The notes: generated by a model not told the origin, from the letters alone. A DNA stretch of 64,000 nucleotides from Malacoraja senta (GCA_038087875.1 CM075987.1:23748001-23812000); one strand, 5' to 3'; shown: positions 214-62,454, numbered from the stretch's first letter. Made by a program: numbers and translations.

Positions 214-310
214 CAGTCTGAAGAAGGGTCTCGACCCGAAACGTCACCCATCCCTTTTCACCAGAGATACCGCCTGTCCCGCTGAGTTACTCCAGCTTTT
301 TGTGTCTTAT
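214..310 (+). mobile_element. Short Penelope-terminal module with hammerhead core, representative of dozens of copies on both strands (e.g. 3190-3645, 7200-7410, 12090-12190, 13755-13850, 22380-22720, 22905-23145, 26780-27100, 29580-29890, 43085-43280, 49615-49815, 55305-55535)
   Basis: CTGAAGAAGGGTCTCGACCCGAAACGTC followed by ccagagatgctgcctg..cgctgagttactccagc. Same sequence family as the tail of the Penelope at 39544-39635. Confidence 0.8.
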
Positions 311-759
311 CTCGAGAAATTCCTCCTCGTCTCCTTTCTAAAGAAATGTCCCGTGTGGGTGAAAGGCCCGGAAGGTGTGGAGCTCGGAGTGAGTGCTGGT
401 CCCTGTACAGAGATCTTGATGGGATTCGCGTGAGAACCTCATCACTTGCTCGCGGTCTGACTCATCAGTGAAACGCCAAACAACCGTCTCCAGGTGAAGT
501 CTCCAGGGGATCTCGACTACTCGCTGAGATCAGCTTCCCCGCAGCTAATCTTAACAGAACTGGAACGGAAATTGTACAAGGCCTTTACTGTAATAAGTAT
601 TTTCGGGCCCTGTTGTCTCTGGGGAGAGGAACTGTCGTTTGCTGCTGTTGTTGTGAGGAAGGGGCTGGGGGAAGATGCGAGTTTCAGAATCACTTGCCAT
701 CTGGCGCACATTGAGTAGAAAATAATTAAGAATGATTTAACTCAGCCAATTGCGAAAAT

Positions 760-1230
760 GATCCCAGGAATGATTGGATTAACCTATGATGAGCATTTGA
801 CGCCACTGGGCCTCCACTTGCTGGAGTTTTAAAGGATGAGGGGGCACCTCATTGAAACGTACCGAATAGTGAAAGGCCTGGATAGAGCCTGGATAGGCCT
901 GGATGCGGAGGATGCTTCCACTAGTGGGAGAGTGTAGAATCAGAGACTATAGCCTTAGAATAAAAGGGCATACCTTTATAAAGTAGATGAGGAGGAATTT
1001 CTTTAGTCAGCGGGTGGTGAATCTGTAGAATGCACTGCCCCTGACAGCTGTGGAAGCCAAGCCAATGGATATTTTTAAGACTGAGATTGATAGATTATTG
1101 ATTAGTACAGGTGTCAGGGGTTGTGGGGAGAAGGCAGGAGAATGGGGTTGAGAGGGAAAGATAGGTCAGCCATGAATGAATGGTGGAGTAGACTTGATGG
1201 GCCGAATGGCCTAATTCGGCTCCTAGAACC
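760..1230 (+). mobile_element. CR1/HER1 LINE 3' fragment; similar fragments at 1594-2690 -, 9727-10140 -, 10620-11020 +, 18110-19160 +, 20840-21280 +, 24040-24400 -, 27616-27960 +, 44210-44480 -, 46565-46830 -, 50745-51170 -, 51675-52070 +, 52660-53000 -, 63740-63985 -
   Basis: Recurrent KGLDRVDVERMFPLVGESRTRGHSLRI..QRVVNLWNSLP coding remnant and a shared 3' UTR. Confidence 0.88.
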
Positions 1231-1820
1231 TACGAGTCATGTTGCATCGCTGGAGAAAATGGATAGGTGGTTGCCTATCAATTATCTCTAGAGATGCTGC
1301 CTGGCCCGCTAAGTTACTTCTGCATTTTGTGTCGATCCTCAGTATAAAGCAGCATCTGCAGCTCATTTTTATTACATTAAGAGTGATTTAACTTCTTCAA
1401 ACTAAATGGATCAATGTACACCTGGTTCCCCTCAGATTGCGATGCTGTGTGGAGTGACCAATGTTGACTGGTTCGTGTTCACTCATGCAGCTTGCAGCTT
1501 CACATGCGAGGGTGCATTTACCATCCACCCTGGTTGCTCTGAGGAAATGTAATTTGCCTTTGAAATAAGTTTTGGGTTTGCTGTGTGACTTCATAGAGTG
1601 ATACAGCGTGGAACCAGGCCCTTCGGCCTAACTTGTCCTCACCGGCCAACATGTCCCAGCTACACATGTCCCACCTGCCTGTGTTTGGCCCATATCCCTT
1701 CAAACCTGTCCTGTCCATGTACCTGTCTAACTGTTTCTTAAACCTTTGGATATTCCCAGCCTCAATTATCTCCTCTGGCAGCTTGTTCCATACACCCACC
1801 ACCCTTTGTGTGAAAAAGTT

Positions 1821-2345
1821 CGTAATGGTACCATTTGGCGTCGCCGTTTCGCCGCCTCCGTTTTGAAGGCGCCGAACTTTTGCTAATTCATCTAATTCAT
1901 CTTGGAAAGCTGTTATATACTTATCACCTAGTTCTTCTTAATTCGTTGTTTAGACAACAGTATTCAGTTAATTTATCTTAATAATGGCTGAAAATATTGC
2001 TTGGTTGCCAGGCATGCACCTAAACAAAACCTCCCTTAAATACAAGAGAGCTGATGAGCGCATTTTAAATATTGTACAACAGTTTGGTACAAGGGATCGA
2101 CTAGAATACTTGCGTGGTTTATCCCATAACTATGAGATACATTAAGTTATTGAATTTATTTTATACTAACTTTTTTTAACCAATTTTTAATTCACCTATT
2201 CTTTATTTAATAAAGGCTCCCAAAACAATTGAAAACTATAGGAATTAACATGAACTAAGTGATAAGCATTAACTATGGGCGGCGCCAAAACGGAGGCGCC
2301 AAAACGGAGGCGCCGAAACAGCAGCACCAAAAAGTACCCAACCCG
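1821..2345 (+). mobile_element. Internally deleted Mutator-like (MULE) DNA transposon inserted in a CR1 fragment
   Basis: Imperfect TIRs with repeated GGCGCCAAAACGG(A) units. 8-9 bp TSD (g)aaaaagtt/(g)aaaatgtt. The internal ORF 1984-2145 ends KYKRADERILNIVQQFGTRDRLEYLRGLSHNYEIH, resembling animal MULE transposase C-termini. Confidence 0.7.
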
Positions 2346-5300
2346 AAAATGTTACCCCTCAGATTCCTGTTAAATCTTCTCCCCTTCACCTTATACCTAT
2401 GTCCTCTGGTTCCTCGATTCACCTACTCTGAGCAAGATGCTCTGTGCGTCCACCCGATCTTTTCCACTCATGATTTTATACACCTCTATAAGATAGCACC
2501 TCATCCTCCTGCGCTCCAAGGAATAGAGACCCAGCCTACTCAACCTCTCCCTATAGCTCACACCCTCTAGTCCTGGCAACATCCTCGTAAATCTTCTCTC
2601 TACCCGTTACAGCTTGACAACATCTCTCCTGTAATATGGTGCCCAGAACTAAACACAATACTCTAAATGTGGCCTCACCAACGTCTTATATCACTTCAGT
2701 TGGGAGTCACTTTGGGATTTGAATCGCAGACACCCAGAGCTGCATGCTTCCTTCATGAAAGTACATCAGTGACAAACGTTTTTTTTACACACAAGAATAA
2801 GATTGTTTTACTTTTAAATTTGGGTTCAAAATGGTAGACTGCAGTTATAGAATTAATCGCTGGATGAACAGATGAGGGAATCAACTACACCCTTGTGGCA
2901 CAGTTTCAAAGCACACTCTCCAGCGTCGGCAGATAATGATCAGGGGCAGCGATTCATATTCCTAATCCTGTCCCTCTGACAGAAGTATCTTCTGTCAACC
3001 TCCTTCCACAGCTTCCTTCTACTCCCCCATTCAATCATGGCTGCTCTATCTTTCCCTCTCAACCCGATTCCCCTGCCCTTGTCCCCGTAACCCCTGACAC
3101 ACATGCCAATCAAGAATCCGTCGATCGCCGCCCTTCTATTCACCCTTCCATGTTCTACAGGGGTGAAGGAGTCGTATATGCAGTGTGGTGTAGGAAGGAA
3201 CTGCAGATGCTGGTTTAAACCAAAGATAGACACAAAAAGCTGGAGTAACTCAGCGGGACAGGCAGCATCTCTGGAGGGAAGGGATGGGTGACGTTTCGGG
3301 TCGAGACCCTTCTTCAGACTAGTCAGGGGAGATATAGACGATGATTTAGAGGGGATGTTGCAGAACTCTCATCAGAGAGAGGATGAGAACTTCTTCAAAG
3401 TAGACAGACCTTGGGGAGATTTCGCCTTCCTTCACATTTTGTCTGCTCCACTGCGAAATCTTCTCAAGGTATGTCTACTTTGAAGCTCTCCTCCTTTCTC
3501 CGCCGAGAGTTCTGCAACATCTCTCTACATCATTGTCTCTATCTCTCGTTGACTAGTCTGAAGAAGGGTCTCGACCCGAAGTGTCACCCATTCCTTCTCT
3601 CCAGAGATGCTGCCTGCCCCGCTGAGTTACTCCAGTTTTTTAGTGTTTATATGCAAGCTGCGACCTATTTGTGAAACACTTTGGCACACACTATCCATTG
3701 AAGCACCTTTAGAAATGCAAGTTGCTTCTAAACTATTGCCATCCCCCCCCTCCATTCACCCAACAATTTAGGCTGCTAGCATCAGCGCATTAGCATTCTT
3801 GAAGGTAGACAAAAAAGCTGGAGTAACTCAGCGGGTGAGGCAGCATCTATGGAGCGAAGGAATAGGCGATGTCGCCTATTCCATCGTTCCATAGATGCTG
3901 CCTCACCCGCTGAGTTTCTCCAGCTTTTTTGTCTACCTTTGATTTTTCAAACATCTGCAGTTCTTTCTTAAACATTATCATCTTGAAGTACCTTTTTAGG
4001 TTCTTATTTTTATCCTGCTTTGTAGTCAAGCCCAAGTGATGCCCTGGATTTGTGATATTTAAATCCACCAGTATTTTTAGTTTTTTTGTTGTTTAGTTTA
4101 GAGATACAGCGCGGGAACAGGCACTTTGTCCCACCATGTCCGCGCCGACCAGTGATCCCCACACACTAACACATTGGAGTGCGGGAATACTTCATTGGAG
4201 TGCGGGAGGAAACCGAAGATCTCGGAGAAAACCCACGCAGGTCACGGGGAGTACGTGCAAACTCCGTACAGACAGCACCCATAGTCAGGATCGAACCCGG
4301 GTCTCTGGCGCTGCAAGGCAATAGCTCTACCACTGCGCCACCATGCTGCCCTAATTCTATTGCTTCTGTGCTTACGTTGAGCTGGCTTCAAGCTGTTTTG
4401 TGTCGGGACAATTGATGAGGATGAGAGGGAACAGCGATTCTCTGGAGATTCAATGCCATGAGGAAAAATGACTGACTGTAAGGTGGTCTTCAACACATTA
4501 GGTACACCATTGTACTCTCAGAGGTCACCTTTAAACTGGGTAGCATGTGTCCTTGATATGCATTCTCCAGGGTTTAGCTAATGTCAAGCTTATCAGCGTA
4601 GACTGATCTTCCATGAGATAGTTACTTTCAATGTCAACGTTGTTAATCGGTTTGCTGTGTATTGAACAAAGTGCATTTAGTTGAAGACCCATTCAGCACA
4701 TTAAAGGCCCTGCTTACTGTAGATTTCCGCATTGGGTGCGTTTCACAGTATTGACCTTCCCATCGGATTCATGTAGGAAGGAGGTAGGAATCGCCATGTG
4801 GATTTTCACGTTATTCCCTTCATCATGTGTCTGTACACTGCGGATGGCACGATAGTAAACATGTATTACATGGTGACACAGCGGTAGAGCACTGCCTCAC
4901 GCAGCGCAAGAGACCCGGGTTCGATCCTGACTACAGGTGCTTATCTGTGCGGAGTTTGTATGTATGTTTTCCCCCCGTGACTTGCGTGGGTTTTCTCCGA
5001 GATCTTCGGTTTCCTCCCCCACCCCGAAGACGTACAGGCTTGTAGGTTAATTGGCTTGGTATAATTGTATAATATGTAAAATTGTCCACAGTGTGTACAG
5101 GATCACTGGTCGGGGCGGACTGGGTGGGCCGAAGGGCCTGTTTCCGCACTGTATCTCTAAACTAATCTAAACTATTGTCTTTCCACTGACTAAGTAGCAC
5201 GCAACTAAAGCTTCGTTACAAGTGACAATATGCAGAACTCAACGCGAGTCGATGAAAAATGTTTTGCATATCTTGACGATTTGGGCTGTGTGGACAGAAG

Positions 5301-6670: not shown

Positions 6671-8029
6671 TTAGACAGGTACATGGATAGGACAGGTTTG
6701 GAGGGATATGGGCCAAACGCGGGCATGTGGGATGACTGTAGATGGGACATGTTGGGCAAGTTGGGCCGAAGGGCCTGTTTCCATGCTGTCTCACTCCCTG
6801 ACGCTAATGTTTGAGAACTGCAGATAGTTGTCTCGGCTGTGAACTTGTATTCCCAATAAAGAAAGTAAAGGGGATTAGGTCAGATAATATTTGCATGTCA
6901 TCTAGGAAATGTGTGAAGAACCGGTCTTTTCACATTCTGCTCTATTATTCCACTAACAAGTCACCATTAAAGGCTGACCTGAACTGTTGCAGGTTGCATT
7001 GGGTTTATTCTCTCATGCATGCTGCATTAATATGGTATTCCCACTGTCTCTATCCTGATCAATATCTTGGTCCTCTGCTGACGTTTGATCATTTCCTCAG
7101 ACTTGATGATCTTTTTTGGGCAGTGCTTTAAAACCTTTGAACTTGTACAGTTTTAAAATTTCCCATATTAATCACAACTGGACCACTTGTCCCGACGATA
7201 CACACAAAAAGCTGGAGTAACTCTAGCGGGACAGGCAGCATCTCCGGAGGAAAGGAATAGGTGACCGTTCTTCAGACTGAAGAAGCCTGAAGAAGGGTCT
7301 CAGCCAGAAACGTCACCTATTCCTTTTCTCAGAGATGCTGCCTGCCCCATTGAGTTACTCCACCTTTTTGTGTCTATTTTCAATTTAAACCAGCATCTGC
7401 AGTTCCTTCTACGTTGGACCACTTATCTTGTTGGTTTTGTCAAATAAAATTGAATCTGGTTAATTCCTATTTTCTTCCAAACGCTAGGCCACAGCCTTCC
7501 CATTTTCACACATCCTGCTCACATTTTCCCCGCCGAGGCGATACACATCTTCCCGTCGCATTTCCACCTGTATTTCCGAAGTTATTAATCATTGAAATTT
7601 AAAAAACAGCCGAAAACGCCTCTCACAGGCAGCTTCCAAGCCTTCTCACAGTGATGATGTCACAATGCCTCTCACTGTGCACCAATCTCAATGGGCTCTC
7701 AAGCTGGCTGCCGACTGCCACAATGACATCACAATGGACGATGCCAATGGTAACGAGGTTGCTGCCCCTCTACCAATATCTGAAGGGATTGCTCATCAAG
7801 TTCTGGTTGCATTTTTGTCCCGTGATCCTGGTGTTTGGGCACAAGGCAGGGAGTGGGGAGGGCTGATCGGGGGGGGGGGGGGGGGGGGAACTCTCATCGC
7901 CCACCCCCCCAAACTCCCCATCTTCCCCCCTCGGGTGAACAACGACACCCTCCCCCCCCCCATGTCGGGAGACGTGGCCCAACGGGTCCCACTTGGTCTA
8001 GTTAATTCTTACAATTTTGGCCAACACTC

Positions 8030-9463: not shown

Positions 9464-12400
9464 TTAATTGGCTTGGTATAATTGTAAATTGTCCCTGGTG
9501 TGTGTAGGATAGTGCTGGTGTCCGGGGATCGCTGGTTGGTGTGGGCTTGTTGGGCCGAAGGACTGTTTCTGTGCTGTATCTCTAAACTAAACTAAACAAA
9601 AGGATGCCGTTTTAAAATGAGGCCATTGGACGTTCGGTGGACTATAAAGAGTGAATAGCTCACAGTGTTGGACAATTTCCTTAATTGATTGTGATTTTGG
9701 ATTAAAAAACAGCAGTTTATTGATAGACAATAGACAATAGGTGCAGGTTTTAGGCCATTCGGCCCTTCGAGCCTCCACCGCCATTCAATATGATCATGGC
9801 TGATCATCCACAATCAGTACCCCGTTCCTGCCTTCTCCCCATATCCCCCCGACTCCGCTATCTTTAAGAGCCCTATCTAGCTCTCTCTTGAAAGTATCCA
9901 GAGAACCTGCCTCCACTGCACTCCGAGGCAGAGAATTCCACAGACTCACAACTCTCTGTGTGAAAAAGTGTTTCCTCATCTCCGTTCTAAATGGCTTACT
10001 CCTTATTCTTAAATTGTGTGGCCCTGGTTCTGGACTCTCCCAACATCGGGAACATGTTTCTGCCTCTGGCGTGTCCAAACCCTTAATAATCTTATATGTT
10101 CCAATAAGACACCCTCTCATCCTTCTAAATTCCAGAGTATTAGAGGATTAGATCACATGAGGTAAATGTATCAGGAGATCTGGAAAAAAAGTATCGGGAG
10201 ATCTGAATGTTTTGCTGAACACTTATGCTTAGTCCATCCTTGGCCTTTGCGATCTCCGGTTGGCAAACATTTTAACCTCCCCTTCCCATTCTCAGACTGA
10301 CCTTTCCGTCCTGGGACTCCTCCACGACACGCAAATTGGGGAACAGCAACTCATATTTCACTTGGGGCAGCTTACAAACCAGTGGTATGAACATTGATTT
10401 CTCCAAGTAACCCTGGTATCCCCTCTCCTCTCTGTCCCTCCCCCCCCCCCCTAATAGGCCCACTAGTTGCGCCATCGTCCTGCTTAGTTTCATTGTTGGC
10501 GACACGTAAGTTGAGGAGCAGCATCTCATATTTTGCTAGAGCAGCTTACAACCGAGCGATATGAACGTTGATTTCTCTAAATTCAAGTAACTCTTGCACT
10601 CCCCCCTCCCTTTCTCCCCTGAGAGGGGATCTCATTGAAGCATATAAGATTGTTAAGGGTTTGACACGCCGGAGGCAGGAAACATGTTCCCGATGTTGGG
10701 GGAGACCAGAACCAGGGGCCACAGTTTAAGAATAATGAGTAAGCCATTTAGAATGGAGACGAGGAAACACTTATTCCTCACAGAGAGTGGTGAGTCTGTG
10801 GAATTCTCTGCCTCAGAGGGTGGTGGAGGCAGGTTCTCTGGATGCTTTCAAGAGAGAGCTAGATAGGGTTCTTAAAAATAGCGGAGTCAGGGGATATGGG
10901 GAGAAGGCCAGGAACGGGTACTGATTGGGGATGATCAGCCACGATCACATTGAATGGCGGTGCCTGGCTCAAAGGACCGAATGGCCTACTCCTGCACCTA
11001 TTGTCTACTGTCTATTGTCTTCCCTCCCCCGACCCTAATCGTCCTAACAGTCCCACTGTTCACATCCTAGTATCCCTCTCGTCAGCACTTCTTCCCCAGC
11101 AAACAATGGGCCGTTATGGACCCGACCCTTCCTGAGCCCGACCCATCTGTTGGCAGCCCTGTTTGTTCTGGCCTTTTCGCCTCCGTTTCCCCCTTCCCCG
11201 CCACCTCCATCTTTCAGTCTGAAGAAGGAGTCCGACCCGAAAAGTCTCCTTTTCATCAGAGATGCTGCCTGACCTGCTGAGTCACTCCAGCACTTTGTGT
11301 CTATATCTGAAACAAAGTTTGTGTTGGGGGGGGGGGGGGGTAATTGCTCGTTGATTGTTTGAGAAACTTGTGTGAGGTGCGTTTGTTTGACTCAGGTGTC
11401 TCCCTTGATACTTGTTTCCCTTCACCCGATGTCGTACGATGGGACCACGAACCAGAGTAATATCCCACGACAGACACTGGCTTGAGGATCGGAAAGTGGA
11501 GATTTTGTGCTTGACAGGGAGGTTGGTATAAAACTGGGAATTGTCAACCCAATCAACAGAATTGTCAGGAGGAGATTCAGAATTTGGAAAGGGTTTGAAT
11601 GGTGACAAAGAGTATTTTGTTGCCAGTATGAAAAGCAAATGAATAAATACGCTGATGGAAGTTTCCATTTCCTGTGGCACAGTTGGAGAGGACGATACCG
11701 CATTCATATTTCATTTTCTGAGCCAATTTGCAGGTTTCCAATGCTGAAAACTATAGTTAGCACTCTGATATTTTTCTCTTCCCTCTACTTTGTTATCCCA
11801 GCTTACCACCACCCAGCAGAATGAACATTGATTTTTCTAACTTCGAGTAACCCTTGCATTCCCTCTCTCTCTCTCCGTTCCACCCCCACTCTAGTCGGCC
11901 TACTAGTTTCTGCTGTCTTCCTGCCTAGTTTCACTGTTTGTATCCACTCATTATCACCTTCTCCACAGCCAACAATGGACCATTGTGGGCTCCATCTTTT
12001 CTTGATTATCTGGTTGGCTTTGATGTATTCTATGCACACCTTTCATTCATTTCTTCTTTGTAACTTTTCATACCTCTAGTTTCCCCCTCCCCTGACTCAG
12101 TCTGAAGAAGTGTTTTGACCCGAAACGTCACCTATTCCTTTTCTCCAGAGATGCTGCCTGACCCTTTGAGTTACTCCAGCATTTTGTGTCTAACTTTGTT
12201 TTCCTTGTTTGGTTTGATTGTGTTCATATATAGTATTTGATTGAATAGCACACAAACAAGCTTTTCACGGTACCTTGGTACAAGTGACAATAAGCTAAAC
12301 CAATGCCAAATACCAGTTGCAGAAACAAGAGGAACTGCAGATGCTGGTTAGTGCACAAAAGGACACAAAGTGCTGGAGTAACTCAGCAGCCCAGGCAGCA

Positions 12401-15400: not shown

Positions 15401-15505
15401 GCTGGAGAGAGACACAACATGCTGGAGCAACTTAGCAGGTCAGGCAGCATCTCTGGAGAAAAGGAATAGGCGACGTTTCGGGTCGAGACCCTTCTTCAGA
15501 CTGTC

Positions 15506-15815: not shown

Positions 15816-15847
15816 TTAGAGTCAGGGGAAAGGGAAACTAGAGGTAT

Positions 15848-16222: not shown

Positions 16223-16259
<37 letters not shown>

Positions 16260-37023: not shown

Positions 37024-37087
<64 letters not shown>

Positions 37088-37218: not shown

Positions 37219-37219
<1 letters not shown>

Positions 37220-46974: not shown

Positions 46975-47043
46975 GCCGTTCCCTTCGGAGGAGACCGCAG
47001 TGGACGATGACGATGTCTATCGCAGCCTGGAGGAGCTGGCCGA
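46975..47043 (+). CDS. VAV2: VAV2 exon (approx. exon 4), acidic region: (R)[22 protein letters not shown](D), containing the first regulatory tyrosine
   Basis: tttgcttttctcag acceptor and GTGAGT donor. 69 bp. Near-identical to VAV2 [24 protein letters not shown]. Confidence 0.95.
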
Positions 47044-48306: not shown

Positions 48307-48506
48307 NNNNNNNNNNNNNNNNNNNNNNNNNNNNNNNNNNNNNNNNNNNNNNNNNNNNNNNNNNNNNNNNNNNNNNNNNNNNNNNNNNNNNNNNNNNNNN
48401 NNNNNNNNNNNNNNNNNNNNNNNNNNNNNNNNNNNNNNNNNNNNNNNNNNNNNNNNNNNNNNNNNNNNNNNNNNNNNNNNNNNNNNNNNNNNNNNNNNNN
48501 NNNNNN
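48307..48506. other. Assembly gap (200 N)
   Basis: Run of N in the sequence. Confidence 1.
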
Positions 48507-48537
48507 GGAAATGGAAGCCATCTTCATTAACCTAGAG
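48507..48537 (+). CDS. VAV2: VAV2 partial exon (3' part of approx. exon 8, DH domain): EMEAIFINLE, 5' part lost in the gap
   Basis: GAA ATG GAA GCC ATC TTC ATT AAC CTA GAG followed by a GTATGT donor. Matches VAV2 DMAAVFINLE. The phase-0 end fits the next exon. Confidence 0.85.
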
Positions 48538-48619
48538 GTATGTGTCTCAACGTCCGAGCCAGCTGTCAGGCAACAACCCTGGAGAAAAGGAACAGGTGAT
48601 GTCTCAGGTCAAGTCAGGT

Positions 48620-49290
48620 GGACAGCAGGCAGTGAAGAAAGCAAATGGCATGTTGGCCTTCACAGCGAGAGAATTTGAGCATAGGAGCAAGGAGGTCCTA
48701 CTACAGTTGTACAGGGCCCTGGTGAGACCACACCTGGAGTATTGTGTGCAGTTTTGGTCTCCGAATTTGAGGAAGGACATTCTTGCTATTGAGGGAGTGC
48801 AGCGTAGGTTCACCAGGTTAATTCCCGGGATGGCGGGATTGACATATGATGAAAGAATGGGTCGACTGGGCTTGTATTCACTGGAATTTAGAAGGATGAG
48901 AGGGAACCTTATACAAACATATAATTTTTTAAAGGGAATGGACAGACTAGATGCAGGAAAAATGTTCCTGATGTTGGAGTCCAGAACCAGGGTCACAGTT
49001 TAAGAATAAGGGGTAGGCCATTCAGGACTGAGATGAGGATTTTTTTTTCACCCAGAGAATTGTGAATCTGTGGAATTCTCTGCCACAGAAGGCAGTGGAG
49101 GTCAATTCACTGGATGTTTTCAAGAGAGTTAGATTTAGCTCTTCGGGTTAACGGAATCAAGGGATATGGGGGAGAAAGCAGGAACGGGGTAATGGTTTTG
49201 GATGATCAGCCTTGATCATATTGAATGGCGGTGCTAGCTCGAAGGGCCGAATGGCCTACTCCTGCACCTATTTTCTATTTTTCTATGTCA
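48620..49290 (+). mobile_element. CR1/HER1 LINE 3' fragment (ORF2 C-terminus and 3' UTR)
   Basis: Encodes [44 protein letters not shown], followed by the CR1 3' tail. Confidence 0.92.
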
Positions 49291-51386: not shown

Positions 51387-51487
51387 GAATTGATCCGAGT
51401 GCATTACAATTTATTGAGAGCCATTGATCTGGCCGCGATCTCGGGAGGCAACACTCTTTGTAAAGTCTTCCTGGATTTCAAAGAACG
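51387..51487 (+). CDS. VAV2: VAV2 exon (approx. exon 9), DH domain: [33 protein letters not shown](R)
   Basis: ctctgtttcag acceptor and GTAAGA donor. 101 bp. Homologous to VAV2 [34 protein letters not shown]. Confidence 0.95.
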
Positions 51488-53329
51488 GTAAGAAATCCGC
51501 TGCTCCCCTCCGTGATTCCTACTGCCTGAGTCGCTGAGTTACCCCAGCACTTTGTATCCATCTTCGGTAAGATATACAAATCCATAATCATGGATAATCT
51601 CCGTATTTCTCTCTCATTACGTACGTACGCCCATATCTGAGTGCAACTCCGTTATTTAGTTTAGTTGAGTTTAAAGATCTCATAGAAACATATAAAATTA
51701 TAAAAGGACTGGACAAGCTAGATGCAGGAAAATTGTTCCCAATGTGGGGCGAGTCCAGAACCAGGGGCCACAGTCTTAGAATAAAGGGGAGGTCATTTAA
51801 GACTGAGGTGAAAAAAAACGTTTTCACCCAGAGAGTTGTGAATTTATGGAATTCCCTGCCACAGAGGGCAGTGGAGGCCAAATCACTGGATGATTTAAGA
51901 CAGAGTTAGATAGAGCTCTAGGGGCCAGTGGAGTCAAGGGATTTGGGGAGAAGGCAGGCACGGGTTATTGATAGGGGACGATCAGCCATGATCACAATGA
52001 ATGGCGGTGCTGGCTTGAAGGGCCGAATGGCCTCCTCCTGCACCTATTTTCTATGTTTCTTATGTTTCTATGTTTAAAGATACAGCGCGGAAACATGTCC
52101 TTCAGCCCACCGAGTCCGTGCCGACCAGCGATCCCCGTATACAAACACTATCGTACACACACTAGGGACAATTTACAATTATACCAAGCCAATTAACCTA
52201 CAAACCTGTACGTCTTTGGAGTGTGGGAGGGAAACCGGAGATCCTGGAGAAACCCGTGTACAAACTCCGTACAGACAGCACCCGTAGTCAGGATCAAGCC
52301 CGGGTATCTGGCATTGTAAGGCAGCCAGTCTAATGCTGCGCCACCGTGCCACCCCTGGATTTGGATTCTGTGACCATGTACCTCTCACTAACGCTCACTG
52401 TATGAGCGTGAGTTATCACGGGGATTGTGAGCTTCTGTGCTGTTAACGTGACTCTGCCTCTGACACTGAGTGAAAATCTATCACCACACTCTTGCAGCGA
52501 GTGAACTGCTGCCTCACAGATCCAGCAGAGATCCAGGCTCAATTCCGACCTCAGGCGCTGTCTGTGTGGAGTTTGCACGCTCTCCGTGAACATGTGGAAT
52601 TGCCCAGATGCTCTGCTTTCCTCCCGCATCACAAAGACCTGCACATCGATAAGTTCACAAGTTATAGGAGTAGTATTAGGCCATTCACCCCATCAAGTCT
52701 ACTCCGGGCATTCAATCATGGCTGATCTCTGCTTCCTGATCCCATTTTCCTGCCTTCTCCCCATTAACCTTGACTCCCATTCTAATCAAGAATTTGTCTA
52801 TCTCCGCCTTAAAAATATCCACTGACTTGGCCTCCACTGAGTTCTACAGATTAACTACCCTCTGGCTAAAGAAGTTCTTCCTCAACTCCTGTCTAAAAGT
52901 GCGCCCTCTAATTCTGAGGCTATGGCCTCTGGTCCTAGACTCTCCCACCAGTGGAAACATCCGCTCCACATCCACTTTATCTATGCCTTTCATTATTCTG
53001 TGATAGGTATATTGGACACTGTAAACTGCCCCCATTATGCAGGTGAGTGGTAGTATGGGGAGGTGAGGGGGGGGGGGGGGGGGGGGGGGAGGTAGGTGGA
53101 GACCGAAGTTGATTTATTTTAAGTATTAACTTTGGGTATGTATAGATGAACATTTCAGAAGGAACATTTCTGTGTCTTTCTGTGAATCTGTGATATATCA
53201 GTGTGTGCTTTTGTAACTCTCTGTCATTGGGACTCACTCTATTTCTGTTTATGTCACCATGTGTAACTGCACCTTCTTGTCTTTCATATTTCATGGGTTG
53301 CTATGTGTAGGGAGATACAGCGTGGAAAC

Positions 53330-54090
53330 AGGTATCTAAATGGTGGCCGATTAGGAAAAGGGGAGATGCAGCGAGACCTGGGTGTCATGGTACACCAGTC
53401 ATTGAAAGTAGGCATGCAGGTGCAGCAGGCAGTGAAGAAAGCGAATGGTATGTTAGCATTCATAGCCAAAGGATTTGAGTATAGGAGCAGGAGGTTCTAC
53501 TGCAGTTGTACAGGGTCTTGGTGAGACCACACCTGGAGTATTGCGTACAGTTTTGGTCTCCAAATCTGAGGAAGGACATTATAGCCATAGAGGGAGTGCA
53601 GAGAAGGTTCACCAGACTGATTCCTGGGATGTCAGGACTTTCATATGAAGAAAGACTGGATAGACTTGGCTTATACTCGCTAGAATTTAGGAGATTGAGA
53701 GGGATCTTATAGAAACGTACAAAATTCTTATGGGGTTGGACAGGCTAGATGCAGGAAGATTGTTCCGATGTTGGGGAAGTCCAGGACAAGGGGTCACAGC
53801 TTAAGGATAAGGGGGAAATCTTTTAAGACCGAGATGAGGAAAAACTTTTTCACGCAGAGAGTGGTGAATCTCTGGAACTCTCTGCCACAGAGGGTAGTTG
53901 AGGCCAGTTCATTGGCTATATTTAAGAGGGAGTTAGATGTGGCCCTTGTGGCTAAAGGGATCAGGGGGTATGGAGAGAAGGCAGGTACGGGATACTGAGT
54001 TGGATGATCAGCCATGATCATATTGAATGGCGGTGCAGCTCGAAGGGCCGAATGGCCTACTCCTGCACCTATTTTCTATGTTTCTATGTA
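53330..54090 (+). mobile_element. CR1/HER1 LINE 3' fragment
   Basis: Encodes [41 protein letters not shown], with a (TTTCTATG)n tail. Confidence 0.92.
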
Positions 54091-54957
54091 TGCATCTTTG
54101 GCCCACCGAGTCTGCGCCGCCCGCAATCACCCCGCACACTAACACAATCCTACACACTAGGGACAATTTATAATTTAATTTACCAAAGCCAATTAACCTA
54201 CAAACCTGTACGACTTTGGAGTGTGGGAGGAAACAGGAAGAACATACAAACTCCGGTACAGACTATACCCGTTGTCGGGATTGAACCCAGGTCTCTGTGG
54301 CGCTGCAAGGCAGCAACTCTACCACGGCACCACCTCTGTTATTTTGTTTAACTCAGTATCTGCCAGTGTGCGGGTCGATTCTCTGTCGCTCATGCATTTA
54401 ATTTTAGGCTAAATTTAGCATTCTTTAGCATTGTGAGCGTTTGCAAAGTGGACAAGTGAGAAAGGACGAACGTTTTGATGTCTTTCATTAATCATTGCAG
54501 CTCTTTCTGACGCCCGTGAAGACAGTTTCCACATATACTCAGCAGGTTGTTATTTAATATCCTGGGTTTGTTGTCTGTGAGAATCTCACGGCTAATTATC
54601 ACCCTGCAGTCTCACGCTTGCCTGCAATTAGCGAGTGCCAGGTTGGATTTAATTCCAAATGTGTGCGGGAAACCGCTTTGTGTAATTGCTGCCCTTTCTG
54701 GAATATTAATCGTCTGCCATTGTCACTGCCTTTTCAGCAAATGTTGCCAGGGACTTGGCAGTGCAATTAAGGAAGCGTCTTTCCCCTCGCCCATAGATCA
54801 CGCACAGTGATGTGCCAACCTAACTCGGAAGCGCCGATCTTGCACTGTCACCTTGGGAGAGATGTGATCATGCGATTGTCCTGGGAACTTTAATCACTTC
54901 TCTGAGAAGAACTTCACTTTTACCAAAAGCTGTGTGAATTCAGACAAGGCAGACTAA

Positions 54958-55182
54958 AGGGTCTGTCCCACTTTCACGATCTAATTCACAATCTTTTTTA
55001 CTCGTGGAAATTTTTCATCAGGCTAGAAAAACGCCCCGACCTACTTGATGCCACGAGTACCTACGACTAGCATCACGACCTACCTACGACCTACCAACGA
55101 CCTCCTACGACCTTGTGGCGACCATGCTGCGAGTATGAGTCAAGGGCAAACTCGGCAGAGGTCGGAAAGTGGGACGGGCCCT
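54958..55182. mobile_element. PIF/Harbinger-like MITE
   Basis: AGGGTCTGTCCCACTTTC..GAAAGTGGGACGGGCCCT TIRs, perfect TAA TSD, internal (ACCTACG)n repeats. Confidence 0.75.
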
Positions 55183-56089
55183 TAACACCGCCTAACCAAC
55201 TTGACTTTGCCACCCCATGGCCCTGCTTCTCTGCCGTCCTATGCCAACTCCTCACTGCATCCCTTCCTGATGAACGGGAAAAAAAATGACACCAAGGAGG
55301 GATATGTTTAAGAAGGACTGCAGATGCTGGAACAATCGAAGGTAGACAAAAATGCTGGAGAAACTCGGCGGGTGAGGCAGCATCTATGGAGCGAAGGAAT
55401 GGGTGACGTTTCAGGTCGAGACCCTTGTTTAGACTGACCTGAAGAAGTCTGAAGAAGGGTCTCGACCCGAACGTTACCCATTCCTTCACTCCATAGATGC
55501 TGCCTCACCCGCTGAGTTTCTCCAGCTTTTTTGCCTACCAAGGAGGGAAATTAACATTTTTTATACCGAGGCATTGCTCAACTGTTGAGGTCATGAATTT
55601 CTCCCATTGAAGCTGTTTGACTGGAGTGTTTTCCGTATTCCCTTTTTCATTTAGTTTCAGATTTCCAGCATCTGCAGTCATTTGGTCTTTGAGTGAAGGA
55701 ATGGTTGATGAAAAGAGGGTCTCGACCCGAAACGTCACCCATTCCTTCTCTCCAGAGATGCTGCCTGTCCCGCTGAGTTACTCCAGCATTTTGTGTCGAT
55801 CTTCGATGAAAAGGACTTGCAACAAATCATGTCAGACTTGCAGGAAACAGTGCAAGGGAGGTCAGCCAGAAGATTTTTGAATAATTAAGACATGAAGCGG
55901 AAGAAAAAACATGGTTTGAATGTTTTAGCAGCAGCTGATATGACCTAAAATTGCCAAACTAGTTCCAGGCAGTTGCGTGGGAGAGGAATGGAGCTGGTGG
56001 CCAGCAAACGCACCAAAGATGATCATTGCAATCTTAATAATCAGTTCTAGGAAGTCGCTGTTCACCCTGCACTGCATAACGGCCAAACT

Positions 56090-57200
56090 AAAGTCAAATG
56101 CCTCAAGAGTGTTTAAATATCAAATGCAAATGAAAATGGAACCATGAAAATCTAACTTGCAGCAGCATAACAGGCCTGTAAGCCCAGAGCTCAAAGATAA
56201 CATAATAAGCAAAACAAAAGATTAAAAAAAACAAAAACCCCCAATGTTATCGCAAGAAGACTGAAGTCCAAGTGCAACTAAAACAGTTCATGGTTTAGTT
56301 TTTGTGATGTTCAAGAGATGAATCTTGTTGAGAAGAAGCTGTTCTGGAACCTGATGGCCACGGTTTTCAGACTACAATGCCTTCTTCCCGATGGCAAGAG
56401 TGATATGAGAACGTGGCCAGGGTGGTGTGGATCCTTTCTTTTTGTATCAAAAATAATGTATCTAATTACTATCACGATACAAACCAAAACCGTGGTCGCA
56501 CACCCACCACCATAGTACAAAATCACCAAATTACTCAGACACTCAATTTCCAAACAACTAAGTTACAATCCTTACAAAATACCAAATATCTACTGTACAA
56601 CCACGTCTCTCTCTAACACCACCCGGGCACGGGCGGACGTAACCCCGGTAAAGGGGCGAGCATCCGGCTCGGGCAAAGCCCTCTTCCGCCTGGCGCCGTG
56701 ACTCGCGGATGGCCAGCTTGGCCAGGCCTAGGAGCAACCCAACCAGGACATCTTCGGCCCTGCACGCCCCCTACATCCCGTCACTGGTCCTTCGGTCGCT
56801 GACAGCAGAGCTGCCCCTCCCCCTCTGAACCTTAGGTGGAGTGGCGGTGCGTGGTGTGGGTCCTTGATGATGCTGGCTGCTTTTTGGAGTCACCACCTTC
56901 TCCACATCCCGTTGATGGTGGGGAGGTCTGCAGCCGTGATGGACCCTGGGTGTTTGAGTTGCCGAACCAGGCCATGATGCAACCAGTCAATATGCTCTCT
57001 ACAGTACACCCGTAGAAGTCCAAGAGAGTACTCGTCGACACCCCGAATCGCCTCAACCTTCTAAGGAAACAGGGGTGTTTCTAAGGAAACATGGCCTATT
57101 TTTATCATTGCATCAATGTGCTGGTGGACCCAGGACAGATCTTCAGAGATATGCACGGCCAGGAACTCGAAGTTGCGGACTCTCTCCACCGCTGACCTGT
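56090..57200 (-). mobile_element. Rex1/Babar-like LINE fragment interrupted by a Tx1-like LINE fragment (~56435-56830)
   Basis: Rex1 motifs RRLRRFGVS..FYGCTVESILTGCI.AWFGN and DPHHPGH..LLPSGRR..RFQNSFF. The insert reads DVLVGLLLGLAKLAIRESR, typical of the Tx1 ORF2 end. Confidence 0.75.
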
Positions 57201-58723
57201 CGAGTATTCGACCAGCGATCCCCACACACTAGCACTACCCACTAGGGACAAATTCATAATTTTACTGAAGCCAATCAACCTACAAACCTGTACGTCTTTT
57301 AGAGTTTGGGAGGAAACCAGAGCACCTGGAGAAAACCCAAGAGGTTACAGGGAAAATGTACAAATTCCATACAGACAGCACCCGTGGACAGTATCGGACC
57401 CGGGACTCTGGCGCTGTAAGGCAGTAACTCCACCGCTGTGCCACCGTGCCGCCCTCGTTACTCTCCGTGGCACAGCACACAAAGTGCTGATCCGTCGCAA
57501 CTCTCTTGGTTCTGAAGTCTGAACACTTGCTAACTTAAAAAAGCCGTCCACTCATCGCTGCCAGCGACCGTGCTGGGAAGCTGGCACACATCGACGGCAT
57601 CCCCTGCTGGCACTGCTGCAGCAATGGACCGTCCCTGGCTTGGCATGGACGGCAGGATTGGGGTGGGTTGACTCAAAGAGGGCAGCCACTCACCGCTGCG
57701 ACGTGGAGCACCATGAGGGTGGGCATGGCTGCACCTGCTCCACGTTCAGAGATTCGGAGTGGAAACAGGCCCCGATGCCCCAGCGAGTCAAAAACCAAAC
57801 CTTCACGTCTTTTGCATGTGGGAGGAAACCCGAGCACCTGGAGAAAATCCATGCGGACACGGGGAGCACGTGCAAACTCCACATAGACAGCACCCGAGGT
57901 CAGGATTGAACCTGGATCTCTGGCTCTGTGAGGCAGCAGCTGCAACACTGTGCTGATCATGTGTTGCCCGCCTGAATACAATACTCCCTCTCACCACCTC
58001 CTGTTGGTTGTGACGGAAGCCCCTGTCTCCCATGCTCTCTCCATCCCCAAATATTACTGTTTGGTTGCATCCTCAATGGGCATTGACCTTCATTGAACTT
58101 GTTACCATTGAGAAGCAGGTATTATCACAATATTTAAGAAACATTTAGACAGGTACGTGGATAAGATAGGTTTAAAGGATTACGGGCCAAACATCGGCAG
58201 GTGGGACTAGTGTAGATGGGACGTGTTGGTCGGTGCGGGCAAGTTGGGCTGAAGGGCCTGTTTCCGCGCTGTATCACTCTATGACCCGAAGTATCTGGGC
58301 TGAGGTTAGTAGTGCAGCCAAGGAGTGGCGCAGCGGTAGAGTTGCTGTCTTTCAGCGCCAGAGCCCCGGGTTCGATCCTGACTGCGGGTGCTGTCTGCAC
58401 GGAGTTTGTACGTGCTCCCCTGGCCGCGTGGATTATCTCCGGGATCTCCGGTTTCCTCCCACACTCCAAAGACGTACGGGCTTGTTGGTTAATTGACCTC
58501 GAAAAAATTGTAAATTGTTCCCAGTGTGTAGGATAGTGGTAGGTGTGCGGGGATCGCTGCTCGGCGTGGACCCGGTAGGCCGAAGGGCCTGTTTCCGCGC
58601 TGTACCTCTAAACTGAAGCAAACTAACCAAAGGAAGAGAGAGGGGGATATCTCCTCCAGCCCTGCCCCTCTGCCCCGCCACAACCTCCTCTTATCCATCC
58701 ATCATTTTTGTTTCTAATTATAG

Positions 58724-58823
58724 GCTCTTGATCTACGGCAAATACTGCAGCCAGATGGAGACTTCACAAAAGACCCTAGACCAACTGATGGCATCTCGGG
58801 AAGAAATACGGCACAAAATCGAG
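58724..58823 (+). CDS. VAV2: VAV2 exon (approx. exon 10), DH domain: [33 protein letters not shown]
   Basis: tttttgtttctaattatag acceptor and GTAAAT donor. 100 bp. Phase is consistent with the flanking exons. Homologous to [33 protein letters not shown]. Confidence 0.95.
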
Positions 58824-59403
58824 GTAAATAAGCACCCCGATAACAGTTGACAATGTGACTTATACGGAACGTAGGGGCAAAGGTTGCAGCAGGAGGGGCT
58901 GAGCGGTCATGGGTCGAACAATGCAGGATGAGGGGAATCAGTGAGGAGTGAGAGGAGGTGGTTGGTGCGAGGGGGATTGGACGGAAGCTTTGTGAGAAGC
59001 ATCGTGGAAGAATATCAGGAGGGGAAGCTGGAGATGACAGAAGTAGGGCAGGAGGATCCTTTAATGGGATGTATGCCTTGGCATCTTTCACAGGCGGCAT
59101 GGTGGCTCAGCGAGTAGAGTTGCTGCCTTACAGCTCTTGCAGCGCTGGAGACACGGGTTCGATCCCGACCACGGGTGCTGTCCGCACGGACTTTTGTACG
59201 TTCTCCCCGTGACCGCGTGGGTTTTCTCTGAGATCTTCGGTTTCCTCCCACACTCCAAAAACGTAGGTTAATTGGCTTGGTATAAGTATGTGTCGGATGG
59301 TGTTAATGTGCAGGGGATCACTGGTCTGTACGGACTCGGTGGGCCGAAGGGTTTGTTTCCGCGCTGTATCTCTATAATAATCATAATAATCATTGTTCTG
59401 TAA

Positions 59404-60161
59404 AGCCCCTGTCCCACTTAGGAGACCTAAACAGCAACTTCTGGTGACCTTGCCCGCCACCCAAGGTTTCCATGAGGTCACCGGAGGTTTTGGTCACTCT
59501 CCCTAAAGGTCGAAAGTGGTTTCCGCGTGGTCGACGCTTCATCTCGGTTGCTGCTATTTTGTCATCATGTTTAAAACCGGGCCTCAACTAAAAATAGGTT
59601 GCTGTTTTAAAAATCGATAATATTTTAGTCGCAGGTCTAGTCGAAGCTGGTTTTCTTCATAGTCGAGGAAGGTTTAAAAAAATTTAAAATAATTTTTTTA
59701 TTAGAAGCAATTGTACCAAGATAAAACATTCGGCTTTTAAAATTATACAATTATTGCACAGCTTCATTTTTAACCTTATAACCTAAACTATCAAAATGAA
59801 AAAAGAAAAGAAAAAGAAAACAAGAAAGGAAAAACATGAAAAATGAAAAGATAGATCGAAAAAGAACAAAAGAAAGACCCCTAAGCTACCAAAGTAGTGT
59901 GGCCGAAAGATATAGAAATAAGGAAAAGGAAAAAGAAAAAGAAAGGTGGAGATATACCTTGCCCCTCGTCCCCCCCCACCCACCTCACCCAACCTGGCAT
60001 CGGATTTAAATTTGTGTTGCACCAGGCTATTCTTGTGAGAATTCAACATATGCGTGGGAGGTGGTCAGAGGTTGCAGGTCACCTCGACCTTGATTTGTTT
60101 TTGGGTGGCGGGCAAGGTCACCAGAGGTTGCTGTTTAGGTCTCCTAAGTGGGACAGGGGCT
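59404..60161. mobile_element. PIF/Harbinger-like MITE with 61-bp TIRs, carrying an A-rich L1-like 3' fragment (~59675-60045)
   Basis: 59404-59464 is the reverse complement of 60101-60161 with one mismatch. Flanked by TAA/TTA. Confidence 0.8.
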
Positions 60162-60891
60162 TTATTAGGTAGCATTAGATAGATGGTGTGATTAAACCAA
60201 CAAAGTGCTCTCTGTGTCAAAGGCAGATAATGTCCAATTTGACGTTTAATGGGTGACTGACAACATGGGAGCAGGTTATAATGTAGTGTGACTCTTCCAC
60301 AAGCAATCTTGTGATGTTGAAACCATGTATCATGTACAATTCGTTTTTTTTCTGGTCCTCCTTGCCCCATATTCCTTGCAAACCCACCTCTTATGCACCC
60401 TCCACCTCTACCAACCCTCTTCTCTGATACTCACTCGTTCTCTATTGTAGTATCTCTTTTCCAACATACATGCATCTTTAGTTTGGTTTAGTTTAGTTTA
60501 GAGATAACAGCGTGGAAACAGGCACTTCGGCCCACCGAGTCCGCGCCGACCAGCGACCCCCACTCAATAACACTATCCTACCAAGCCAATTAACCTACAT
60601 ACCTGTACGTCTTTGAAGAGTTGGAGGAAACTGAAGATCTCGGAGAAAACCCACGCAGGTCGCGGGGAGAAAGTACAAACTCGGTACAGACAGCACCCGG
60701 GGTCGGACCACCAACAATCCTACAATTGTGGACCACCTACAATCCTGCTCTCTATCGCCATGCATTGGACCACAACTTTCACACCGTCATTGAGCAGTAG
60801 GATCAGCCATGGAACGTGACTCAATCCCACGGACAGTTTTCCTGAACATTACTCACTCTTGTTCCCATCTGTTTTTCTTTCCTTTGGCCAG

Positions 60892-60987
60892 GAGTGTACC
60901 CTAAAAGTCCAGGAGGGAAAGTTTAAACTGCAGGATCTGCTGGTGGTTCCGATGCAGCGCATTTTAAAGTACCATCTCCTGCTGAAG
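60892..60987 (+). CDS. VAV2: VAV2 exon (approx. exon 11), DH domain: [32 protein letters not shown]
   Basis: Long pyrimidine tract + CAG acceptor and GTGAGT donor. 96 bp. Carries the DH signature P.QR..KY.LLL. The [16 protein letters not shown] segment is VAV2-type. Confidence 0.97.
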
Positions 60988-62454
60988 GTGAGTGTCCACT
61001 GTATCGGGTCTGTTCCACGTTGGGCCGGGATTATGAATCAGACACAAAAACCATTATCAAACTCGGTGAGCTAGTACTCTGTCGCAGCTGATAGTCAATA
61101 GTGTTTTATTTGTCAGATGTGAAATTCTTTTTGCATATAACACACATGAGGGCGCCGCCATATTTGGCGCCATTGTTCAAAGTTCAAAGTCTGGTCGGCC
61201 CATCCGGCCATCTTTGTGTCCCTAGGGAGCCTCCTGCAGCCGACCTTGCAGGCGTGGAGGCATTACACTGGTTCACCCTCCTACCAAAGGAATGAATAAA
61301 GGAGGCCCCGGCTGTGGGAGGACTGCAGTGAGGGGAGGGGGAAGGATGGGGGGGGGTGGGGTGATGGGGGGAGTGGGGGAGATACTACTTGTAACTTTGC
61401 AGGCGCCCTTTATGTAGCAACTATTTGCATATCTTGGCAAGCGAAGAATTTCACTGTGACTTGTTACAAGTGACAATAGAGCATTCATTCATTCATTCGT
61501 TCACACCGGCCCTTGTTCCTCACATCCAATACCTCCAGCTCCCGTCTGACGAGCCATTCGGGCGAGTTCCCGGACCCACCGACAGGCGAGCCTTAGAATT
61601 CTCTGTAGCACTGCACACAAACTACTGATCTGTTGCCATTCTCTTGTTTCTGAGGTTTGAACACTTGCAAAACCCACCTCTGCTTTAAAATGCCATCCAC
61701 CCGTCGCTGCCAGCGACTATGCTGGGGAGCTGGCACACGTTGACGCCATCCTTGCGGGCACTCCTGCTACAATGGACCACCCCTGGCTTGGCGTGGAGGG
61801 CAAGAGTAGGGTGGGCTGACCCAAAGAAGGCTGCGATGTGGGTGGACGTTGCTGGGGACAGGCTGCACCTACTCCACGTTCAGAGATTCACCTTTGAGAC
61901 AGGCCCTTTGCCCTAGTGAGTCCATGTTGACCCATTCACACTAGATCTATGTTATCCCACTTTCACATCCACTCCCGAGACACAAAGGGCACTTTTACAG
62001 AGGCCAAGTAAACCTGCAAGCCTTCAATAGACAATAGACAATAGGTGCAGGAGTAGGCCATTTGGCCCTTCGATGTGATCATGGCTGATCATCCCCAATC
62101 AGTATTTAAGAAGGAACTGCAGATGCTGGAAAATCGAAGGTACTCAAAAATGTTGGAGATACTCAGCGGGTGCAGCAGCATCTATGGAGCGAAGGGTTTT
62201 GGCCCGAAACGTTGCCTATTTCCTTCGCTCCATAGATGCTGCTGCACCCGCTGAGTTTCTCCAGTATTTTTGTGTATCCCCAACCAGTACCCCGTTCCTG
62301 CCTTCTCCCCATATCCACTGACTCCGCTATTTTTAAGAGCCCTGTCTAGCTCTCTTTTGAAAGCATCCAGAGAACCTGCCTCCACCGCCCTCTGAGGCAG
62401 AGAATTCCACAGACCTTCACGTCTATGGCAAGTGGGAGGAAACGTGAGCAGCCG

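What the first reader, a model, noticed from the sequence alone, without database searches (positions are those of the whole stretch)
214..62300. Dense family of short Penelope-derived modules each carrying a hammerhead-ribozyme core (retrozyme-like) inside the VAV2 pre-mRNA
Seen: dozens of 100-250 bp modules contain CTGAAGA-A-[GGGTC TC GACCC]-GAAAC-GTC, or the variant stem GGGT TTCG GCCC with GTT. This is the CUGANGA / stem II / GAAA / UH hammerhead core with an extra A before stem II and a minimal AC-GT stem III. The same motif ends the RT+GIY-YIG Penelope at 38371-39635, linking the modules to their likely mobiliser. The two subfamilies differ in stem II sequence yet both keep a paired stem. 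Established: Penelope-like elements carry minimal hammerheads, and short-stem-III hammerheads often act as dimers. Inference: this is a very high-copy ribozyme-bearing non-autonomous family in a chondrichthyan. Sense copies (e.g. 218, 22388, 26786, 27010, 29798, 39548, 43183, 55450) would be transcribed within VAV2 introns.
Basis: partly seen in the sequence, partly recalled or inferred. Interest (0 to 1): 0.72.

Follow-up and report, generated by a model that had tools for sequence, protein, structure and literature searches.

The report
Penelope retrotransposon ends with decayed hammerheads
The many short repeats in this skate gene's introns are the clipped-off ends of a known kind of jumping gene that carries a minimal self-cutting RNA motif; here they are mostly broken, decaying copies rather than a working ribozyme system.

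Summary
The repeats are real: 64 module hits (33 +, 31 -), 9% of the window, in a + strand VAV2 gene of a skate. They are not retrozymes. They are 5'-truncated pLTR ends of at least two Neptune-like Penelope families. Four copies still run back into a Penelope ORF end. In 20 head-to-head pairs, 19 carry the ~35-nt tail on one arm only and 14 have target-site-like repeats: the published Penelope insertion structure. The motif is the known Penelope minimal hammerhead, but only 12 of 64 hits keep the full core. The core decays like its flanks (7.3% vs 8.3%). Native helix I is 2 bp, against covarying 3-7 bp in most relatives. 54 of 64 hits span the cleavage site, so the templates were uncut. No complete head-to-tail array and no strand bias was seen. 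Activity was not tested. The scan reported the same kind of motif in two other shark genomes. Residual interest: the pairs fit two-site twin priming, and 5' ends pile up at the hammerhead's 5' edge.

The parts
38369..39429 (+). 5'-truncated, frameshifted Penelope-like ORF remnant (RT YIDD motif, thumb, CX4CxxC linker split by a frameshift, GIY-YIG endonuclease); B-type family
39430..39636 (+). Pyrimidine-rich 3' UTR plus B-type pLTR module; full hammerhead core at 39548-39575, helix I 2 bp
11799..12200 (+). A-type Penelope 3' end: ORF C-terminus (..MNIDFSNFE*), ~250-bp UTR, module with core at 12102-12129 (stem II 3/4)
12325..12739 (-). A-type partial tandem: hammerhead fragment, ORF C-terminus (NIDFSNFK*), UTR, module with damaged core, second truncated module with tail
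15398..16310 (-). A-type ORF end, UTR interrupted by two insertions, module with full core at 15499-15472
10260..11314 (+). Older Penelope endonuclease end (duplicated), interrupted, with a degenerate module at 11216-11314
3190..3647 (.). Head-to-head pair with ~100 bp of a third UTR type on each arm; full core on the - arm (3317-3290); 8-bp flanking repeat TATATGCA
215..318 (+). Solo A module, full core at 218-245
7199..7413 (.). Head-to-head pair, tail on + arm, 13-bp flanking repeat; + arm core intact but stem II 3/4 and helix I 0 bp
22385..22717 (.). Sense A module (full core 22388-22415) followed by a head-to-head pair
26783..27114 (.). Sense module (core 26786-26813), then an inverted pair inserted at its 3' end (core 27010-27037; 21-bp flanking repeat). 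The only two same-strand full cores within 1 kb; the antisense arm between them pairs with a sense copy in the predicted fold
29583..30256 (.). Head-to-head pair split by a DNA-transposon-like insertion that contains a further module (full core 29797-29824)
40012..40170 (.). B-type head-to-head pair, tail on + arm, perfect 16-bp flanking repeat ACATCTGTATACCCAT
41000..41124 (.). B-type insertion whose inverted arm is tail only; 17-bp flanking repeat
43019..43464 (.). Nested pairs: a younger pair (43080-43273, 16-bp flanking repeat, full core 43183-43210) inside the junction of an older pair
43893..44025 (-). B module with full core (44022-43995) and tail, antisense to VAV2
50386..50577 (.). 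B-type head-to-head pair, 15-bp flanking repeat
55308..55538 (.). Head-to-head pair; + arm (55449) lacks one A of GAAA; 15-bp flanking repeat
62106..62276 (.). B-type head-to-head pair, 14-bp flanking repeat, no full core
42569..63608 (+). VAV2 coding-exon matches: 42569-42628, 46973-47044, 48508-48537, ~51387-51488, 58722-58823, ~60892-60987, 63540-63608

Best explanation
The modules are the terminal (pLTR) fragments of at least two high-copy Neptune-like Penelope retrotransposon families, written into the genome by the element's own RT/GIY-YIG protein. Likely mechanism: the endonuclease makes staggered nicks (shown only indirectly, by 8-21-bp flanking repeats). Reverse transcription starts inside the RNA at two sites about 35-40 nt apart (two fixed 3' ends seen; internal initiation shown in vitro for an anole Penelope, inferred here). 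One nick primes from each site, the two cDNAs stop at or near the hammerhead and are joined head to head (inferred), giving a ~130-250-bp inverted insertion with the tail on one arm. The hammerhead is the standard Penelope minimal hammerhead carried along uncut. In these skate families helix I has shrunk to 2 bp. After insertion the copies decay neutrally, and in VAV2 pre-mRNA most are broken or tied up in long hairpins, so they are passengers.
For: 3' ends are bimodal: 33 of 68 hits end at model 85-104 and 23 of 68 at >=120. Of 20 hand-curated head-to-head pairs, 19 have the tail on exactly one arm, 0 on both and 1 on neither (p=2e-5); 14 of 20 have a flanking direct repeat scoring >=8, against 2 of 380 mismatched flank pairs. 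Arms of a pair are closer than cross-pair arms (12% vs 21% divergence, 16 pairs, p=1.6e-5). Copies at 12099+, 12502-, 15502- and 39545+ run back through a UTR into a Penelope ORF C-terminus. This layout (inverted pLTR, 8-10-bp TSD, one-sided 30-40-bp tail) is described in PMC3846280 and PMC8557442 (passages); two-site internal initiation and extension from both strands in PMC11167929 (main text parts 1-2). Only 12 of 64 hits hold a full core. Non-CpG core mismatches are 27/369 against 239/2896 downstream (p=0.61), and CpG sites run at 16-26%. Strands are 33+/31- (p=0.90). 54 of 64 hits span the cleavage site. In 6 of 7 protein-selected relatives a similar motif lies 98-123 nt after the ORF.
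Against: 41 of 64 5' ends fall between 5 nt upstream of the module start and model position 17, and only 7 extend more than 20 nt upstream. That is tighter than plain random truncation would suggest and could mean a dedicated short RNA, i.e. a non-autonomous unit. The partner arm was the nearest neighbour in only 5 of 16 pairs. Full cores are 9 sense to 3 antisense (two-sided p about 0.15, hand calculation). No genome was held, so family-wide selection on the master elements could not be measured. Neutral decay of inserted copies says nothing about activity of the source element.
Confidence: 0.82

Rival explanations
1. A separate non-autonomous, SINE-like family: a short RNA starting at the TCAGTC sequence just before the hammerhead core is transcribed from solo modules and copied in trans by the Penelope protein.
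For: 5' ends pile up at the hammerhead's 5' edge. 29 contigs of run X1 have loose, low-agreement sequence before position 39545, the module's first base (table 7). TCAGTCT fits an initiator consensus (recalled). D. virilis Penelope has an internal Inr/DPE promoter (PMC2377424, passages). Non-autonomous pLTR derivatives exist (10.64898/2026.07.22.740005, parts 1-3).
Against: The same pile-up follows if the autonomous element's own transcript starts there. Modules carry no sequence that is absent from ORF-linked copies. ORF-body sequence is itself very abundant in DNA run X19 (summed contig depth 1.0-3.6 million over ORF bins against 22-53 over unique bins; not a copy number).
Confidence: 0.12
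2. Non-LTR retrozyme: hammerhead-flanked monomers are cut from multimeric transcripts, circularised and reinserted.
For: The type I hammerhead core is present; retrozymes derive from Penelope pLTRs and were found in one chondrichthyan genome (10.64898/2026.07.22.740005).
Against: No tandem array with two complete units: Tandem Repeats Finder finds one 50-bp partial tandem without the core, and the only close same-strand full cores (26783, 27008) are separated by an antisense arm. The motif is the minimal type, not the canonical 6-bp helix I type of described retrozymes (PMC7229834, passages; PMC4209133). The dominant arrangement is head to head.
Confidence: 0.04
3. Inverted pairs arise by fold-back self-priming at the palindromic hammerhead (stem II or ACGT), not by twin priming; otherwise as in the best explanation.
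For: Several junctions are centred on stem II or ACGT palindromes (e.g. 3869/3872, 5569/5583). Self-priming was proposed for Penelope inverted junctions in PMC3846280 (passages).
Against: It does not by itself explain why exactly one arm ends at each of two fixed sites (19 of 20). Some pairs have tail-only arms or unrelated spacers at the junction (37665, 41031, 23035/23051).
Confidence: 0.25
4. Some sense copies are active ribozymes that cut VAV2 pre-mRNA (dimer-, protein- or splicing-assisted) and affect its processing.
For: 9 sense copies keep the catalytic core. The anole Penelope hammerhead cleaves when its protein is present (PMC11167929). A 2-bp helix I has a precedent in D. virilis (PMC4209133).
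Against: Predicted helix I pairing probability is <=0.001 in two skate copies against 0.12-0.99 in five relatives (no tertiary or dimer terms). 7 of 9 sense full cores have an antisense copy within 400 nt. There is no core-specific conservation and no sense depletion. Metazoan minimal hammerheads cleave weakly even as dimers, and 8 of 9 Xenopus dimers did not cleave.
Confidence: 0.06

Closest known systems
Minimal hammerheads (min-HHR) in metazoan Penelope pLTRs (Cervera & De la Pena 2014, PMC4209133)
   Same: CUGANGA core, extra nucleotide between 9 and 10.1, G10.1-C11.1 pair, palindromic 15.2-16.2 with no loop 3, place in the pLTR, mostly dispersed single or opposite-strand copies from truncated elements.
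   Different: Helix I is 2 bp with an A-C mismatch at the third pair, instead of 4-5 bp (2 bp was reported only for the D. virilis variant); helix II is 4 bp. I saw no skate example in the parts read; that paper's supplements were not opened.
Neptune-clade EN+ Penelope-like elements (Craig et al. 2021, PMC8557442; Arkhipova et al. 2013, PMC3846280)
   Same: RT then C-terminal GIY-YIG with a CX2-5CxxC linker, heavy 5' truncation, partial tandems, inverted pLTR, one-sided 30-40-bp tail, short TSD.
   Different: Here most insertions hold nothing but the two pLTR tips (~130-250 bp), about 45 events in 64 kb by my rough count. The clade was assigned from the linker motif only; no tree was made.
Poseidon element PAc of Anolis (Frangieh et al. 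2024, PMC11167929)
   Same: Two internal RT start sites bounding the tail; uncleaved RNA as template; both DNA strands nicked and extended.
   Different: A different clade; shown in vitro there, inferred from genomic footprints here.
Metazoan non-LTR retrozymes (PMC7229834; bioRxiv 10.64898/2026.07.22.740005)
   Same: Short, non-coding, type I hammerhead, Penelope-related.
   Different: Retrozymes are head-to-tail repeats of complete units, typically with canonical hammerheads, expressed as circles. These modules are head-to-head, truncated and minimal.

Membership tests
Penelope min-HHR | CUGANGA + GAAA + UH core with an extra nucleotide before helix II and palindromic 15.2/16.2 | tested here: met
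   12 of 64 hits hold it in full
Penelope min-HHR | Paired helix II with G10.1-C11.1 | tested here: met
   4/4 pairs in 10 of 12 full-core copies
Penelope min-HHR | Helix I of about 4-5 bp (2 bp in the D. virilis variant) | tested here: inconclusive
   0-2 bp in 10 of 12; the 3- and 4-bp cases use junction-derived upstream bases. Relatives: 21 of 31 cluster representatives have >=3 bp, with covariation
Penelope min-HHR | Located in the pLTR after the ORF | tested here: met
   39548 lies 119 nt after the ORF stop; three A-type copies are ORF-linked
Penelope min-HHR | Self-cleavage as a dimer or with protein | not testable with these tools
   needs an in vitro assay
EN+ Penelope-like element insertion | RT with C-terminal GIY-YIG endonuclease | tested here: met
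   tblastn and profile matches to relatives that carry RVT_1 and, below Pfam's cut-off, GIY-YIG; the window's own frame fragments gave no Pfam hit
EN+ Penelope-like element insertion | 5' truncation, inverted pLTR, one-sided tail, short TSD | tested here: met
Neptune clade | CX2-5CxxC linker between RT and EN | tested here: met
   CNRKRC then TCP across a frameshift; intact CX4CxxC in relatives
Neptune clade | RT phylogeny places it among Neptune elements | not tested
   no labelled reference set was at hand
Non-LTR retrozyme | At least two consecutive head-to-tail units with complete hammerheads | tested here: not met
   window only; the genome was not available
Non-LTR retrozyme | Canonical type I hammerhead with ~6-bp helix I | tested here: not met
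   helix I 2 bp; no Rfam hammerhead hit
Non-LTR retrozyme | Expressed as circular RNA | not testable with these tools
   only contigs were available

The most novel reading that the evidence does not exclude
In skates the Penelope hammerhead has stopped being a cutter and now works as a structural or promoter element. Transcripts start at an initiator-like TCAGTC three bases before the core, which leaves no room for a long helix I. A dimeric RT primes one cDNA from each of two internal sites on opposite DNA nicks, both run off at that 5' edge, and the result is a mass of ~200-bp inverted insertions. The genome would then hold a very large natural record of a twin-priming mechanism so far only hinted at in vitro.
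Probability: 0.3. Interest if true: 0.55.

Novelty: new member of a known kind. Interest (0 to 1): 0.27.

Why it matters
As a ribozyme finding it adds little: minimal hammerheads in Penelope ends are published for fish, coelacanth, frog and reptiles (PMC4209133). Its use is for two open points about Penelope elements, how they prime and join cDNA and whether their hammerhead needs to cut at all. The strict one-arm tail rule and the loss of helix I in very successful families bear on both. The inverted pairs also form long hairpins in host pre-mRNA.

Tried and rejected
No whole genome was held, so no genome-wide consensus, copy number or orthologue test was possible. Rfam: no hammerhead family; the miRNA-family matches are all below gathering score and several lie on the inverted pairs. 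Exact-motif scans of viral contigs and genome contigs gave 0; the protein scan of viral contigs gave no relative. Sequencing runs: no RNA holder listed, which is no evidence on expression. Only contigs could be laid, so starts, ends and strand are not shown; no joint skipping the UTR appeared among the 15 joints shown, 578 more were not shown. The idea that the polypyrimidine+CAG before the core is a Penelope 3' splice site is therefore untested; joining the ORF-stop region to it would not lengthen helix I (read from sequence). The three hits starting at model 31-32, next to the cleavage site, were inspected: one is a pair junction and two look like alignment overshoot into a neighbouring repeat, so they are not taken as cleaved-template products. 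The covariance model R1 scores skate copies up to 43.8 bits against 43.6-55.5 for the best relatives, but most training rows were fetched with this motif, so it is not independent evidence. Lunse et al. (PMC5785218) is not held; I saw it only as a reference-list entry and as summarised in PMC6765202. Paper searches 'Penelope+skate+shark+ribozyme' and 'Penelope+cartilaginous fish+hammerhead ribozyme' gave 0 papers, and 'Penelope-like+twin priming' gave 3 papers that look unrelated by listing. The library lacks most subscription papers and Repbase/Dfam were not searchable, so absence from print is not shown. No supplements were opened; those of PMC4209133 and the 2026 preprint may list chondrichthyan motifs.
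Full report
Host and gene. The exon at ~60892-60987 matches RhoGEF, and its named relatives are VAV2. Skate, ray and shark VAV2 proteins map seven exon matches on the + strand between 42569 and 63608; six are 95-100% identical to the Amblyraja radiata protein, and the seventh alignment ran into intron. The host is therefore a skate or close relative (inference). Exons for aa 1-107 and 151-230 were not found; a 200-N gap sits at 48307-48506. Everything before 42569 is presumed intron.

Census. The 27-nt motif occurs 21 times at <=3 mismatches and never in 100 shuffles. An iterated nhmmer profile gives 64 hits and none on the reversed window. With the tail included there are 68 hits covering 9.4% of the window. 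Strands are 33+/31-. Two main subfamilies (52 A, 12 B) and at least three upstream UTR types occur.

What the modules are. The remnant at 38369-39429 matches chondrichthyan and invertebrate proteins with RVT_1 and weak GIY-YIG hits. It has a CX4CxxC linker read across a frameshift, the motif that PMC8557442 gives for Neptune (passages). The B motif follows 119 nt after the stop. A-type modules at 12099+, 12502- and 15502- likewise run back through a UTR into a Penelope C-terminus, so both subfamilies are ends of coding elements. 3' ends fall in two groups about 35-40 nt apart (33 and 23 of 68). I curated 20 head-to-head pairs from the automatic pairing, re-pairing two interrupted or nested cases. 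In 19 the tail is on one arm only, and 14 have flanking direct repeats of 8-21 bp, against 2 of 380 control pairings. Arms of a pair tend to share subfamily letters (12% vs 21% divergence; 16 of 18 pairs were long enough to score). This is the Penelope insertion anatomy described in PMC3846280 and PMC8557442 (passages) and PMC8969392 (passages).

The hammerhead. The motif has every sequence feature of the Penelope minimal hammerhead listed in PMC4209133 (parts 1-2 of 4 read). Only 12 of 64 hits keep the whole core, 9 sense and 3 antisense, and 10 of these keep all four stem II pairs. Non-CpG core positions mismatch the subfamily consensus at 27/369, downstream positions at 239/2896 (p=0.61), and CpG positions at 16-26%: ordinary neutral decay. 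Native helix I is two pairs (A-U or G-U, then C-G) followed by an A-C mismatch; one 3' bulge adds a third pair in some copies.

Comparison with relatives. Among 31 cluster representatives, 21 have helix I of 3 bp or more and the third pair forms in 27; total pairing is 95 against a maximum of 60 in 2,000 shuffles. On a 27-row alignment, all five helix I pairs show double-sided changes, with covariation 0.50 against 0.17 +/- 0.03 shuffled and <=0.13 slid. That alignment dropped 5 representatives (two of them with no helix I, which favours pairing) and added L127. So the motif class is a real, covarying structure, and the skate version has lost most of helix I. Predicted helix I pairing is <=0.001 in two skate copies and 0.12-0.99 in five hand-picked relatives (secondary structure only). 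In 6 of the 7 protein-selected loci the motif lies 98-123 nt after the ORF; four of these are near-identical and carry a U4-to-C change, and L122 has a decayed copy there.

How it works. 54 of 64 hits span the would-be cleavage site, and none convincingly starts at it, so the templates were uncut or religated. This agrees with PMC11167929, where uncleaved RNA is the main substrate, RT starts at two internal sites bounding the tail, and both DNA strands are nicked and extended (parts 1-2 of 4 read). The simplest reading is one priming event per nick, one at each site, with the cDNAs joined at their far ends (inferred). Fold-back self-priming is the rival. 41 of 64 5' ends lie at the hammerhead's 5' edge or within it, and 7 extend more than 20 nt upstream (local-alignment ends are uncertain by a few bases). 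An initiator-like TCAGTC at that edge may be the transcript start (consensus recalled; untested).

Effect on VAV2. 7 of 9 sense full cores have an antisense module within 400 nt, and the two regions folded form long duplexes that take in the hammerhead flanks. With no sense depletion and no core conservation, the copies are best read as passengers.

Retrozyme test. The defining head-to-tail repeat of complete units (10.64898/2026.07.22.740005, parts 1-3 of 5 read; PMC7229834, passages) is absent from the window.

Verdict. The feature is real, it is a new member of a known kind, and the retrozyme label is not supported. Two earlier scan notes on other shark genomes reached a similar reading; they are unchecked AI notes and were not used as support.

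Noticed in passing
window 62425-62560 (+): A decayed duplicate of the VAV2 exon at 60892-60987 (78% aa identity over 23 residues, with an indel), 1.5 kb downstream.
   Followed up: partly
window 48307-48506: A 200-N gap directly before a partial VAV2 exon; exons for aa 151-230 are missing from the window, probably in the gap or misassembled.
   Followed up: partly
window ~32140-35310 (-): Ty3/Gypsy-like LTR retrotransposon pol fragments (protease, RT start, RNase H, integrase-like stretches), with a shared flanking repeat near 31650-31930 and 35950-36290; named by eye.
   Followed up: no
window ~15505-15815 and ~29738-30198: Insertions with inverted ends AGGGCCTGTCCCAC... that split Penelope modules; they look like a non-autonomous DNA transposon.
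   Followed up: no
window 39520-39547, 12075-12101, 26760-26785: Polypyrimidine tract, CTGAC-like word and CAG just before the hammerhead core resemble a 3' splice site, as at the D. virilis Penelope intron end; on the sense strand it could be a cryptic acceptor. Several ray and skate gene models (P0125, P0128, P0129) include Penelope ORF sequence.
   Followed up: partly
window 24388-24464 (+) and 27553-27624 (-): Two truncated modules share the same junction to another repeat, suggesting a chimeric subfamily or a local inverted duplication.
   Followed up: no
window ~38130-38300, ~40700-40925 and many others: An abundant SINE-like repeat and LINE 3' fragments (e.g. the RT-like frame at 53485-53709) fill much of the rest of the introns; family names not checked.
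   Followed up: no
L121-L127: Animal-type Penelope elements with hammerheads sit in contigs of assemblies labelled as bacterial MAGs, most likely host contamination.
   Followed up: partly
L006, L035, L045, L079, L088, L098, L102, L107, L116, L117: Opposite-strand pairs of the same hammerhead 50-340 nt apart also occur in the metagenome loci, so paired insertions of this kind are not limited to skates.
   Followed up: no
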